Part shown: piece by piece, positions 21,194 through 22,658 of the stretch | How positions within the stretch are numbered: the stretch's first letter is position 1 | How the letters are laid out: the number at the start of each line of letters is the position of its first letter | Assembly (NCBI GenBank): GCA_012557565.1 | Contig: GCA_012557565.1_3926.1 | Strand: one strand, 5' to 3' | Length of the DNA stretch: 64,000 bases | Source of the DNA: a phage | Notes under the pieces: model-generated | The model's input: the letters and a program-made list of their open reading frames with translations, nothing else | Databases searched by the model: none | What the model was told of the DNA's origin: nothing | Program-made: the position numbers and the translations under genes

Positions 21194-21664
21194 CTATTTT
21201 GGATAAACAGCGTCAAGGTAAATTTTGGCTTCCAAACTACGCCTATTTTGTAGACCCTTGGAAGTTACTTTTTGACCATTCACTGTAATCTTGTTCCACC
21301 ACTGCATAGCTTCTGCACAACCAGCTTTGTTACCAGCATTGTGACGCTTGATAAAAGTTGAATCCTGCATAGCACCGATGCCAATGTTGTAAGTCTCTAC
21401 AACAAGTGCGTCAAATTCGTTCTGCGTAGTTGGAACCTTAATTGCTCTGTTTACTGCACCTACATAGTTTTCAACATCTGCAAGGAGATATTGAACAGCT
21501 TGTTCAGCAGTAATCTTCATCCCCATTGTTACAGGTCTTCCGTTGATACGGATTGTTCCATAGCCGATTGTGGGGATTCCAGCAGAGTCTTTATAAGCTT
21601 CTAAGCGAAGCCCTTCAAAGAACTTAATGGCTTCTAAGCCTTTACTTGAGAGTTGCATTATCAA
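21194..21664 (-). CDS. T4-type lysozyme (glycoside hydrolase family 24) endolysin
   Basis: N-terminal FEGLRLEAYKDSAGIPTIGYG matches the catalytic Glu/Asp/Thr segment of T4 lysozyme ([22 protein letters not shown]). Confidence 0.8.
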   Translation of the reverse strand: MIMQLSSKGLEAIKFFEGLRLEAYKDSAGIPTIGYGTIRINGRPVTMGMKITAEQAVQYLLADVENYVGAVNRAIKVPTTQNEFDALVVETYNIGIGAMQDSTFIKRHNAGNKAGCAEAMQWWNKITVNGQKVTSKGLQNRRSLEAKIYLDAVYPK

Positions 21665-22293
21665 CCTCCTACTGCGTTAATAACCACCTTGGCAGATTGG
21701 GATGTGATTGAGCCACCTACACCAGTTACAACACAAGAGTAAGTACCTTCATCATCAGCTTTAGAAGTCGGTGTCTTTTCATATGTTGCAGATGTTGCTG
21801 AAGGGATATCTACATCATCTTTCTTCCACTGATAACCAGTTGCACCAGTAGCAACAACTGAAAGTGTAAGTGTTCCACCCTCGTTGACAGTTTGGTCAGT
21901 TGGCTGCTGTGTAATAACTGGAGGTGTGATTGCATCCTTCAACTTTGCATTAAGCATAGAGAAAGGTTTAACCCTTGCCAACCATTCACAATAAACTGTG
22001 TCAACATCCTTCCCATTGATGATTGCATACTGCAAGTCCATGAAGAAGTCAGCAGTCCTCATCTGAGCACCAACTGAATATAAAAGTTCTTCACTAAATG
22101 GGACTGTGTAGTCTGGTGTGTAATTGAAGTCAGTAACTTCTGGAATATCAGACTCAGGCCACGGTGAGCTATATGTCAGAGGCAGAACGGCCTCTTGATA
22201 CTTTCTGAAGTCGTATCTTTTGCCAGCTTTAACATTCGCTACAAAGTCTTTAACGAACTCTTTAAAATCTGGATATGTCTTTGCTTTAATCAT
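21661..22293 (-). CDS. hypothetical protein with C-terminal Ig-like domain; paralogue of 22290-22658
   Basis: N-terminal domain shares conserved positions with the neighbouring ORF (PWPE.DI, EELLY, FMDLQY); C-terminal sequence looks Ig-like. Confidence 0.55.
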   Translation of the reverse strand: MIKAKTYPDFKEFVKDFVANVKAGKRYDFRKYQEAVLPLTYSSPWPESDIPEVTDFNYTPDYTVPFSEELLYSVGAQMRTADFFMDLQYAIINGKDVDTVYCEWLARVKPFSMLNAKLKDAITPPVITQQPTDQTVNEGGTLTLSVVATGATGYQWKKDDVDIPSATSATYEKTPTSKADDEGTYSCVVTGVGGSITSQSAKVVINAVGG

Positions 22294-22658
22294 TTCTTAG
22301 CCTCTAATCTTGCATTTAGTCTAAAATAACCTTTGTGCTGCGGTGAAACATCACCTACAACAACTCCGTCAATCTTATAGCCTTTACCCATCACATATTG
22401 AATATCCATCAAAAATGTACCAAGACCAACGATATGAAACATTGGGTAAAGAAGTTCTTCAGTATCTGGTAGAGGAATTTTAGGTGTGTATTCGGAATGT
22501 GTTTCGGTAGGGTTGATATCCTTCTCAGGCCATTTGCTATCACGCCATGTTAAGGGTGTCGGAAGTACATCATCAAGATTATACCTGTCACCTTCTTGAA
22601 CACTTTGGACATAAGATTGTAGGAAGCAATAAAAGTCTTTTCCACTCTTTGCCTTCAT
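22290..22658 (-). CDS. hypothetical protein, paralogue of N-terminal domain of 21661-22293
   Basis: 122-aa ORF; shared motifs with neighbour. Confidence 0.55.
   Translation of the reverse strand: MKAKSGKDFYCFLQSYVQSVQEGDRYNLDDVLPTPLTWRDSKWPEKDINPTETHSEYTPKIPLPDTEELLYPMFHIVGLGTFLMDIQYVMGKGYKIDGVVVGDVSPQHKGYFRLNARLEAKK

What the first reader, a model, noticed from the sequence alone, without database searches (positions are those of the whole stretch)
21194..22658. T4-type lysozyme followed in the same operon by two paralogous proteins, one with an Ig-like domain
The two ORFs immediately downstream of the GH24 lysozyme share an N-terminal domain (conserved PWPE.DI, EELLY, FMDLQY positions), and the longer adds an Ig-like C-terminal domain. 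Tandem paralogues next to an endolysin could be cell-wall-binding or lysis-regulating accessories, or surface proteins placed outside the structural module.
Basis: seen in the sequence. Interest (0 to 1): 0.45.

Follow-up and report, generated by a model that had tools for sequence, protein, structure and literature searches.

The report
Capsid decoration gene, stub paralogue, endolysin
The longer protein next to this Felix O1-like phage's lysozyme is a known Hoc-like fibre that sits on the capsid, and the only open point is that the shorter one is a conserved copy of just its capsid-binding domain, with unknown function.

Summary
All three genes lie on the minus strand, so the two paralogues are upstream of the GH24 lysozyme, not downstream. 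The window comes from a Mooglevirus (Felix O1-like myophage, about 95% nucleotide identity to Citrobacter phage BSwM KMM4 and Shigella phages ESh19 and Sf17).

The long paralogue (210 aa) is the Sf14 gp20 / Bas63 Hex-Dec capsid decoration protein. Its first 120 residues are identical to the capsid-binding domain (CapBD) solved in PDB 9C2D. The window's major capsid protein matches Sf14 gp34 at 367 of 367 residues. It is therefore a capsid surface protein encoded outside the structural module, not a cell-wall or lysis accessory.

Its function is unknown. My inference is a non-virion role in head assembly or decoration. The finding is mostly already explained, with modest residual interest.

The parts
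22681..22694 (-). Intrinsic terminator-like hairpin (GGGGC-GAAA-GCCCC followed by TTTTATTT). It closes the upstream 196-aa gene and marks the 5' boundary of the three-gene unit.
   Evidence: A terminator is annotated at the same place in Citrobacter phage Mijalis.
22290..22658 (-). Short paralogue 'S' (122 aa, 14 kDa). It is a stand-alone copy of the Hex-Dec capsid-binding domain (CapBD) with no Ig domain. It is the orthologue of Felix O1 ORF37, Sf14 FDI99_gp021 and VpaE1 ORF40, and belongs to phrog_4463. An AAGGA ribosome-binding site lies 8 nt upstream of its start.
   Evidence: - Family and homology: phrog_4463 E 1.6e-77. Sequence hits in the PDB are only 9c2d_S (E 1.1e-12) and 9ncf_S.
- Selection: dN/dS 0.09-0.18.
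- Contact residues: G78 in 33/33 genomes and mostly Q/H, never Arg, at position 107, where the long paralogue has Arg79 and Arg107.
21661..22293 (-). Long paralogue 'L' (210 aa). This is the Hex-Dec / Sf14 gp20-type Hoc-like capsid decoration protein. Its start overlaps the stop of S as ATGA.
   Evidence: - phrog_3995 E 2.2e-120.
- PDB 9c2d_S E 1.9e-152 and 9ncf_S E 2.2e-186.
- Function and location taken from PMC11821841 and PMC12609058.
21934..22293 (-). CapBD of L (residues 1-120). It contains Arg79 and Arg107, which in Sf14 form salt bridges to major capsid protein Asp221.
   Evidence: - Residues 1-120 are identical to the modelled chain S of 9C2D.
- R79 and R107 are invariant in 33/33 genomes.
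- The window's MCP is 367/367 identical to 9c2d_A, including D221.
21673..21924 (-). Single Ig-like (I-set / Ig_3) display domain of L, residues 124-207.
   Evidence: - Pfam Ig_3 E 1.3e-9, I-set E 7.6e-7.
- Homologous to the Ig domain of the T5 pb10 decoration protein, 5lxk E 1.2e-9.
- Relatives carry 1-4 such repeats.
21665..21670 (-). Shine-Dalgarno AGGAGG for the lysozyme gene. It lies inside the last codons of L, 6 nt before ATG 21658.
   Evidence: Read directly from the sequence.
21194..21658 (-). GH24 (T4/P22-type) endolysin, 154 aa from the ATG. The Glu15/Asp24/Thr30 spacing matches the T4 lysozyme triad.
   Evidence: - PF00959 at 132.8 bits.
- phrog_7 endolysin E 3.6e-56.
- 7m5i endolysin E 7.7e-85.
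- Annotated as a 154-aa endolysin in Mijalis, KPS64, Sf14 and Felix O1.
21164..21187 (-). Intrinsic terminator-like hairpin (10-bp stem followed by TTATTT) that closes the three-gene unit.
   Evidence: A terminator is annotated at the same place in Mijalis.

Best explanation
Region 21194-22658 is a terminator-bracketed, minus-strand unit of late genes in a Mooglevirus (Felix O1-like, Ounavirinae). Its order is S (CapBD-only paralogue), then L (Hex-Dec/gp20 Hoc-like decoration protein), then GH24 endolysin.

Shown, by identity to solved structures:
- L binds as a monomer into the centre of the 60 pentamer-proximal hexamers of the T=9 capsid.
- It binds through its N-terminal 120-residue CapBD, with Arg79 and Arg107 contacting MCP Asp221.
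- Its single Ig-like domain projects outward, as in T4 Hoc.

Shown, by comparative genomics:
- The decoration gene next to the endolysin is an old synteny of the whole subfamily, not a functional lysis cassette.
- S arose by tandem duplication of the CapBD before Felixounavirus, Mooglevirus and a divergent uncultured lineage split.
- S is the derived copy. It keeps the fold but has remodelled, and then frozen, the two segments that contact the capsid in L.
- S is under purifying selection. One clade has lost it without losing L.

Inferred, at about 0.35 confidence for this step only:
- S is made late together with L and acts inside the infected cell on the same process, head assembly or decoration.
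- For example, it could occupy hexamer centres of assembly intermediates transiently or weakly, or tune how L is loaded.
- It is not a stable, stoichiometric virion component.
For: Identity of the phage and of L:
- 95% nucleotide identity to Mooglevirus genomes.
- L residues 1-120 are identical to 9C2D chain S, and the MCP is identical to 9C2D chain A.
- Binding mode, site preference and virion mass-spectrometry detection of gp20 come from PMC11821841. Independent confirmation in Bas63 comes from PMC12609058.

Operon anatomy:
- ATGA overlap, AGGAGG and flanking terminators.

Synteny across the subfamily:
- Kolesnikvirus Hena2 has [206 aa]-[CapBD+Big_2]-[endolysin].
- The uncultured locus L013 has [185 aa]-[CapBD]-[lysozyme].
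- The divergent locus L008 keeps S-L-lysozyme.

S is a CapBD:
-.

S is functional:
- dN/dS 0.09-0.18, against 0.03-0.05 for the CapBD of L.
- About 45 alignment columns are conserved within each paralogue but differ between them. These fill S72-81 and S100-113, the positions of Arg79 and Arg107 in L.

S is the derived copy:
- Single-copy outgroup CapBDs score higher on the L profile than on the S profile in 5 of 6 cases.

Expression and virion content:
- Felix O1 ORF36 and ORF37 are both maximally expressed at 60 min.
- ORF36, but not ORF37, is in the virion proteome, although other 10-14 kDa proteins were detected.
- VpaE1 ORF40 is, by inference, not among its 22 virion proteins.
- Neither cryo-EM study saw density on the unoccupied hexamers.

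Dispensability:
- In 20 of 253 phage records the only match to S is the L gene, so S appears to be absent. I inspected three of these records plus one IMG/VR contig (L042). All four lack the S gene.
- REP10 retains a roughly 190-nt remnant of S. L is intact in three of the four, and its CapBD is unchanged.
Against: - Nothing here tests what S binds.
- Absence from virion proteomes is weak negative evidence. The Felix O1 list required at least 25% coverage, and the VpaE1 table is an image I could not read.
- The Sf14 mass-spectrometry table lists only assigned structural proteins.
- Loss of both contact arginines may mean that S no longer binds capsid at all.
- Felix O1 RT-PCR puts the lysin (ORF35) at 25 min and ORF36/37 at 60 min. 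The three genes may therefore not be one simple transcript.
Confidence: 0.8

Rival explanations
1. S is a genuine but overlooked virion component. It would be an Ig-less 'blank' decoration occupying capsid sites that Hex-Dec does not use: the 20 three-fold hexamers, the five portal-proximal hexamers, or sub-stoichiometric sharing of the same 60 sites. More remotely, it could be an unassigned density elsewhere in the particle.
For: - S keeps the complete CapBD fold.
- It is expressed late together with L and is translationally coupled to it.
- Its remodelled contact segments are strictly conserved, as expected for a different but specific docking site.
- The Sf14 paper notes that Asp221 geometry differs at three-fold hexamers.
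- Icosahedral averaging would hide a protein at the portal-proximal hexamers.
- Bas63 has an unassigned C3 density showing two helices per 120 degrees at the puncture-device tip.
Against: - Both cryo-EM studies report no density on the other hexamers.
- S is not in the Felix O1 virion proteome and, by inference, not in that of VpaE1.
- The Bas63 authors attribute the unassigned density to the baseplate module.
- A clade lacking S is viable.
Confidence: 0.15
2. S is a dedicated partner or chaperone of Hex-Dec. It would pair with the CapBD of L through the paralogous, pseudo-two-fold surface, keeping L soluble or unbound until expanded capsids are available, and would then be released.
For: - The ATGA overlap gives coupled translation of S and L. 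The gene order is strictly conserved in all 33 paired genomes.
- S is not found in virions.
- There is a modest excess of identical residues in S and L of the same genome at variable loop positions 53-70: 0.275 against 0.246 +/- 0.006, with 0 of 2000 shuffles reaching the observed value.
Against: - L stays intact, with an unchanged CapBD, in three of the four inspected genomes where S has decayed.
- Kolesnikvirus and other lineages manage with a single CapBD gene.
- The same-genome signal is confounded by phylogeny and could equally reflect gene conversion.
- No structural test was possible.
Confidence: 0.15
3. S has been co-opted for a role unrelated to the capsid, for example binding a host protein or acting as a decoy for a host defence that senses the decoration protein. 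Only the fold survives from its origin.
For: - Both capsid-contact arginines are replaced in every S.
- S evolves faster than the CapBD of L: 76% against 87% identity between Moogle and Felix O1, with 3-5 times higher dN/dS.
- It is an accessory gene that has been lost in a clade.
- It is not in virions.
Against: - There is no positive evidence. S has no hit in Pfam or NCBIfam and only 'unknown function' in PHROGs.
- Expression is late in Felix O1, whereas host-takeover genes are usually early.
- It remains tightly linked and translationally coupled to L.
Confidence: 0.12
4. This is the first reader's reading: the two paralogues are cell-wall-binding or lysis-timing accessories of the endolysin.
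For: The only support is adjacency and co-orientation with the GH24 gene.
Against: - L is located on the capsid by cryo-EM and virion mass spectrometry in phages with an identical CapBD.
- There are no peptidoglycan-binding, transmembrane or holin/spanin-like features.
- The endolysin is a complete single-domain enzyme with a solved close homologue.
- The same synteny holds where the CapBD gene carries Big_2 or no extra domain.
Confidence: 0.03
5. S is a decaying remnant of a tandem duplication with no function.
For: - It has decayed in one clade.
- It is less constrained than L.
Against: - dN/dS is 0.09-0.18 with dS up to about 1.2.
- The reading frame is intact at 122-124 aa in about 233 phage records and in a lineage only 48% identical.
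- More than 40 positions are specific to S and invariant.
Confidence: 0.03

Closest known systems
Sf14 gp20 / Bas63 Hex-Dec (Ounavirinae hexamer-centre decoration protein; PDB 9C2D, 9C3A, 9NCF)
   Same: - L is a member of this family. Its CapBD is identical to Sf14 gp20 over residues 1-120 and keeps Arg79 and Arg107. The cognate MCP is identical, and Ig-like repeats follow the CapBD.
   Different: - L has one Ig repeat, against three in Sf14, four in Bas63 and two in its closest nucleotide relatives. This variation is already documented.
- S has no Ig domain and lacks both contact arginines. It has its own conserved surface segments and has not been seen in virions.
[quoted passage not shown]
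   Same: Both are monomeric, dispensable, hexamer-centre decoration proteins made of a small capsid-binding domain plus a string of Ig-like domains. PHROG 'Hoc-like head decoration' families match the Ig part of L.
   Different: - The domain order is reversed: the capsid-binding domain of Hoc is C-terminal.
- The CapBD is topologically distinct and unrelated in sequence (PMC12609058).
- From my own knowledge, I am not aware of a CapBD-only paralogue of Hoc.
T5 pb10 decoration protein (PDB 5LXK, 8ZVI)
   Same: [quoted passage not shown] Its Ig domain is detectably homologous to that of L (E 1.2e-9).
   Different: The match covers only the Ig domain (L residues 131-192). The capsid-binding domains show no detectable similarity.
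GH24 phage endolysins (T4 lysozyme / P22 gp19 type; nearest solved 7M5I)
   Same: It matches PF00959 over the full length, the catalytic Glu-Asp-Thr spacing is conserved, and it is a single-domain soluble enzyme.
   Different: Nothing notable. As in Felix O1, there is no adjacent holin gene (PMC3185647).

Membership tests
Hex-Dec / Sf14 gp20 decoration protein - long paralogue | N-terminal CapBD homologous to the domain modelled on the capsid in 9C2D and 9NCF | tested here: met
   E 1.9e-152 to 9c2d_S, with residues 1-120 identical. E 2.2e-186 to 9ncf_S.
Hex-Dec / Sf14 gp20 decoration protein - long paralogue | Capsid-contact residues Arg79 and Arg107, plus a cognate MCP with Asp221 | tested here: met
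   - R79 and R107 are present and invariant in 33/33 genomes.
- The window's MCP is 367/367 identical to 9c2d_A, including D221.
Hex-Dec / Sf14 gp20 decoration protein - long paralogue | One or more C-terminal Ig-like repeats | tested here: met
   One repeat at residues 124-207: Ig_3 E 1.3e-9.
Hex-Dec / Sf14 gp20 decoration protein - long paralogue | Physically bound at the centres of pentamer-proximal hexamers of the T=9 capsid | not testable with these tools
   Transferred from Sf14 and Bas63 cryo-EM and mass spectrometry, on the basis of identical interface residues.
Hex-Dec / Sf14 gp20 decoration protein - short paralogue | CapBD fold | tested here: met
   - phmmer E 1.1e-12 to 9c2d_S.
- Foldseek probability 1.0, TM 0.69-0.72.
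Hex-Dec / Sf14 gp20 decoration protein - short paralogue | Capsid-contact Arg79 and Arg107 | tested here: not met
   S has Gly78 in 33/33 genomes and mostly Gln or His, never Arg, at the position aligned to Arg107. The surrounding segments are conserved but differ from L.
Hex-Dec / Sf14 gp20 decoration protein - short paralogue | Ig-like display domain(s) | tested here: not met
   The protein ends at residue 122 and has no Pfam hit. All orthologues are 122-124 aa.
Hex-Dec / Sf14 gp20 decoration protein - short paralogue | Presence in purified virions | not testable with these tools
   - The literature is negative. Felix O1 gp37 is absent from the virion proteome that contains gp36.
- It is not among the VpaE1 virion proteins, by inference.
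- It is not mentioned in the Sf14 or Bas63 papers.
T4 Hoc family | N-terminal Ig-like domains followed by a C-terminal Hoc-type capsid-binding domain | tested here: not met
   In L the domain order is the reverse. The PHROG Hoc-like matches cover only residues 124-205. The CapBD is reported to be topologically distinct.
GH24 phage lysozyme (PF00959) | Full-length match above the Pfam gathering score, and the Glu/Asp/Thr catalytic triad with T4-lysozyme spacing | tested here: met
   - 132.8 bits against a cutoff of 22.3, covering profile positions 2-124 of 125.
- E15, D24 and T30, numbered from ATG 21658 and read from the sequence. The spacings of 9 and 6 match T4 lysozyme E11/D20/T26, which I cite from my own knowledge.
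Endolysin cell-wall-binding or lysis-accessory modules (LysM, PG_binding, SH3, holin, spanin) | A recognisable peptidoglycan-binding domain or transmembrane segment in either paralogue | tested here: not met
   - No such Pfam, NCBIfam or PHROG hit for S or L.
- No hydrophobic segment is apparent by eye in either sequence. No transmembrane or signal-peptide predictor was run.

The most novel reading that the evidence does not exclude
The short paralogue would be an undescribed class of capsid accessory: an Ig-less, re-targeted copy of a Hoc-like capsid-binding domain. It would act on the capsid lattice itself, for example by capping hexamer centres of procapsids or of the hexamer classes that Hex-Dec cannot bind, or by setting how many Ig fibres a particle carries. 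Under this reading Felix O1-like phages regulate their surface decoration with a dedicated paralogue.
Probability: 0.3. Interest if true: 0.5.

Novelty: new variant of a known kind. Interest (0 to 1): 0.3.

Why it matters
For annotation:
- Both paralogues are widely labelled 'tail protein'. The label traces to Felix O1 Gp36, called 'major tail protein' in 2010.
- The long one is a capsid decoration protein. The short one is a CapBD-only paralogue.

For biology:
- Felix O1-like phages are used in diagnostics and therapy, and Hoc-like proteins are used as display platforms.
- A naturally occurring 14-kDa capsid-binding module without fibres could be a minimal display anchor, if it still docks on capsids.
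- Alternatively it could be a handle on how decoration occupancy is controlled.
- If it does not bind capsids, it is a clean example of a structural domain being recruited to another role.

Either way the stakes are modest. Both the gene and its partner are dispensable accessories.

Tried and rejected
No complex prediction was possible.
- Searching IMG/VR with the divergent S orthologue P0097 found nothing. Its context came from the look-up of encoding contigs instead.
- I tested the idea that the conserved upstream 196-aa gene is a T4 Inh-like head protein, prompted by a precomputed 'faint' Phage_Inh_N hit on a distant homologue. Fresh Pfam scans at E up to 10 found nothing, so I dropped it.
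- Net charge and pI of S against the CapBD of L were uninformative.
- Three literature searches for further virion proteomes of Felix O1-like phages were unproductive. The VpaE1 proteome table is held only as an image.
- I considered a programmed frameshift fusing S to L. It is rejected because no protein with two CapBD stretches exists among 1.84 billion cluster representatives, and the ATGA overlap is an ordinary coupling signal.
- The sigma-70-like sites inside the unit are fewer than chance expectation (6 found against 9.5 expected), so no internal promoter is claimed.
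Full report
**What is in the sequence**

ORF listing and direct reading show three contiguous genes on the minus strand.
- A 122-aa ORF runs 22658 to 22290. I call it S.
- A 210-aa ORF runs 22293 to 21661. I call it L. Its ATG overlaps the stop of S as ATGA.
- A GH24 lysozyme follows. Its ATG at 21658 sits 6 nt after an AGGAGG that lies inside the end of L.
- The TTG at 21664 reported by the ORF finder is not the start annotated in relatives.
- GC-rich hairpins followed by T-runs bracket the unit at 22694-22681 and 21187-21164. Terminators are annotated at both places in phage Mijalis.

S and L share 37% identity over about 120 aa (E 3e-18). L carries an Ig_3/I-set domain at residues 124-207. 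The stated order is reversed, though: the paralogues are upstream of the lysozyme.

**Where the window comes from**

- The region is 95% identical to Citrobacter phage BSwM KMM4 and to Shigella phages ESh19 and Sf17. It is about 91% identical to Citrobacter phages Moogle and Mijalis, and more distantly related to more than 200 Felix O1-like genomes.
- This places it in genus Mooglevirus, subfamily Ounavirinae.
- The structural module is on the plus strand: TerL at 31600, portal at 33229, MCP at 37307-38410, sheath at 40337.
- A 25-gene tRNA array lies between the structural module and the unit studied here.

**The long paralogue is a known protein**

- L matches PDB chains 9c2d_S (Sf14 gp20) and 9ncf_S (Bas63 Hex-Dec) at E 1.9e-152 and 2.2e-186. 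Residues 1-120 are identical to Sf14 gp20.
- The window's major capsid protein is 367/367 identical to Sf14 gp34.
- The Sf14 paper (PMC11821841) shows by cryo-EM and virion mass spectrometry that gp20 is a monomeric Hoc-like decoration protein. Its N-terminal 118 residues fold into a capsid-binding domain (CapBD).
- The CapBD sits in the centre of pentamer-proximal hexamers only. Arg79 and Arg107 form salt bridges to MCP Asp221.
- The Bas63 paper (PMC12609058) confirms this independently. It notes that the gene lies more than 10 kb outside the structural module, that the number of Ig repeats varies from one to four, and that the protein is generally mis-annotated as a tail protein.
- That label goes back to Felix O1 Gp36, called 'major tail protein' in the 2010 proteome (PMC3185647).
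- The window's L is the one-repeat form. Its nearest nucleotide relatives have two repeats.
- The Ig domain is homologous to that of the T5 decoration protein pb10.

**The lysozyme is ordinary**

- PF00959 scores 132.8 bits, and a solved endolysin (7m5i) matches at E 7.7e-85.
- The Glu/Asp/Thr spacing of T4 lysozyme is present.
- Neither paralogue has any cell-wall-binding or membrane feature.

**Why the decoration gene sits next to the lysin**

- The arrangement [about 190-aa gene]-[CapBD gene]-[GH24 lysozyme] recurs in Kolesnikvirus Hena2, where the CapBD is fused to a Big_2 domain.
- It also recurs in an uncultured lineage where the CapBD carries only a lysine-rich tail.
- The adjacency is therefore an old synteny across Ounavirinae, not evidence of a shared lysis function.
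- Felix O1 RT-PCR places ORF36 and ORF37 (L and S) at 60 min with the structural genes, and the lysin ORF35 at 25 min.

**The short paralogue**

This is the only part not covered by the literature I could read. Neither structural paper mentions it: 'gp21' and 'paralog' return nothing relevant. A search for later work on Hex-Dec found only the Bas63 paper.

*Fold*
- S has no Pfam or NCBIfam match and belongs to phrog_4463, 'unknown function'.
- By sequence it hits only the two Hex-Dec chains in the PDB (E 1.1e-12).
- S is therefore a complete CapBD and nothing else.

*Distribution and age*
- A profile of both paralogues finds only 12 clusters among 1.84 billion representative proteins, so the domain family is narrow.
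- Within the contig sequence available, the more distant members are single-copy genes.
- Felixounavirus, Mooglevirus and a divergent 87-kb metagenomic phage all carry S immediately upstream of L.
- S orthologues are more alike (48% between the window and L008) than S and L are to each other (34-45%). The duplication therefore predates that split.
- Single-copy outgroups score better on the L profile than on the S profile in five of six cases, so S is the derived copy.

*Is S functional?*
- NG86 dN/dS is 0.09-0.18 for S, 0.03-0.05 for the CapBD of L, and 0.05-0.10 for the lysin at comparable dS.
- In 33 genomes carrying both genes, about 45 alignment columns are conserved within each paralogue but differ between them.
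- These columns fill S72-81 (PMFHIVGLG) and S100-113 (VVGDVSPQHKGYFR). These are the segments that hold Arg79 and Arg107 in L.
- L has these arginines in 33/33 genomes. S has Gly in 33/33 at the first position and mostly Gln or His, never Arg, at the second.
- The shared invariant residues (WPExDI, LLY, FxMDxQY, LNAxL) look like fold determinants.
- S is thus not a decaying copy. Its capsid-facing elements were remodelled and then frozen.

*Is S in the virion?*
- Felix O1 gp36 was detected with 14 peptides, and several 10-14 kDa proteins were also detected. Gp37 is not on the list.
- The 22 virion proteins of VpaE1 are the Felix O1 set (minus the gp23 homologue) plus gp54, gp58 and gp68, so ORF40 (its S) is absent by inference.
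- Both cryo-EM studies report empty centres on the remaining hexamers.
- This evidence is negative and imperfect.

*Is S needed?*
- In 20 of 253 phage records the best match to S is only the L gene.
- REP10 retains a roughly 190-nt remnant of S with the start codon lost and an internal deletion.
- L is intact in three of the four, and its CapBD shows no residue unseen in S-containing genomes.
- S is therefore dispensable for phage viability, and L is maintained without it.

**Most likely mechanism**

- For L, the mechanism is transferred directly from Sf14 with high confidence.
- For S, I commit with about 0.35 confidence to an intracellular, late-acting role in the same process as L. For example, it could occupy hexamer centres of assembly intermediates transiently or weakly, or modulate how L is loaded, rather than being a stable virion protein.
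- The basis for this is fold retention, late co-expression, translational coupling, strict linkage, re-shaped but conserved contact segments, and absence from virions.
They are weighed in the rivals section. The last two are effectively excluded.
- One weak hint may point to a shared partner or to gene conversion. At variable positions in the loop 53-70, S and L of the same genome carry the same residue more often than shuffled pairings do (0.275 against 0.246 +/- 0.006). This signal is confounded by phylogeny.

**Verdict**

The finding is real and correctly located. Most of it is already explained by two 2025 structural papers: a GH24 endolysin preceded by the Hoc-like Hex-Dec decoration gene. 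The residual novelty is that the 'second paralogue' is a conserved, selected, Ig-less CapBD copy with altered contact residues and no assigned role. I rate it a new variant of a known kind, with interest about 0.3.

Noticed in passing
window 25939-31167 (+): An array of 25 tRNA genes lies between the decoration/lysin unit and the terminase gene. This is typical of Felix O1-like phages.
   Followed up: no
window 21673-21924 (-); compare L001 4940-5824 and L002 2946-3830: The window's decoration protein has one Ig repeat (210 aa). Its closest nucleotide relatives (95% identity) have two (294 aa), which corresponds to a repeat-unit indel of about 250 bp. Across the fetched loci there are forms with one, two, three and four repeats.
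   Followed up: partly
[not shown]
   Followed up: yes
alignment of S and L from 31 distinct genomes, S residues 53-70: At variable loop positions the two paralogues of one genome tend to carry the same residue (for example YTP/EELLY in Mooglevirus against YKP/DxLLY in Felixounavirus). The fraction is 0.275 against 0.246 in shuffles. This could reflect gene conversion, co-adaptation to one partner, or just phylogeny.
   Followed up: partly
window 22702-23292 (-): A 196-aa gene of unknown function (phrog_4034) sits directly 5' of the CapBD gene in every Ounavirinae lineage examined, including Kolesnikvirus. A precomputed 'faint' Phage_Inh_N hit on a distant homologue was not reproduced.
   Followed up: partly
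window 21656-21664 (-): The mechanical ORF call starts the lysozyme at TTG 21664, overlapping the stop of the upstream gene. The annotated and better-supported start is ATG 21658, behind AGGAGG.
   Followed up: yes
window 23910-25773 (+): A DUF5681 protein and a 471-aa DUF2828/vWA 'RNA-binding protein' (phrog_850) are transcribed divergently from the unit studied here, just before the tRNA array. The pair is conserved even in the distant locus L013.
   Followed up: no
window 37349-38377 (-): A 342-aa open reading frame runs antisense through almost the whole major capsid gene. It is probably a composition artefact.
   Followed up: no
public records, not the window: A record named 'Staphylococcus phage SA1' carries a 99% identical orthologue of the short paralogue of Felix O1-like coliphages. 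This suggests a mixed or contaminated deposit.
   Followed up: no
Bas63 literature (PMC12609058): [quoted passage not shown] Its identity is unknown. There is no evidence linking it to the short paralogue.
   Followed up: no
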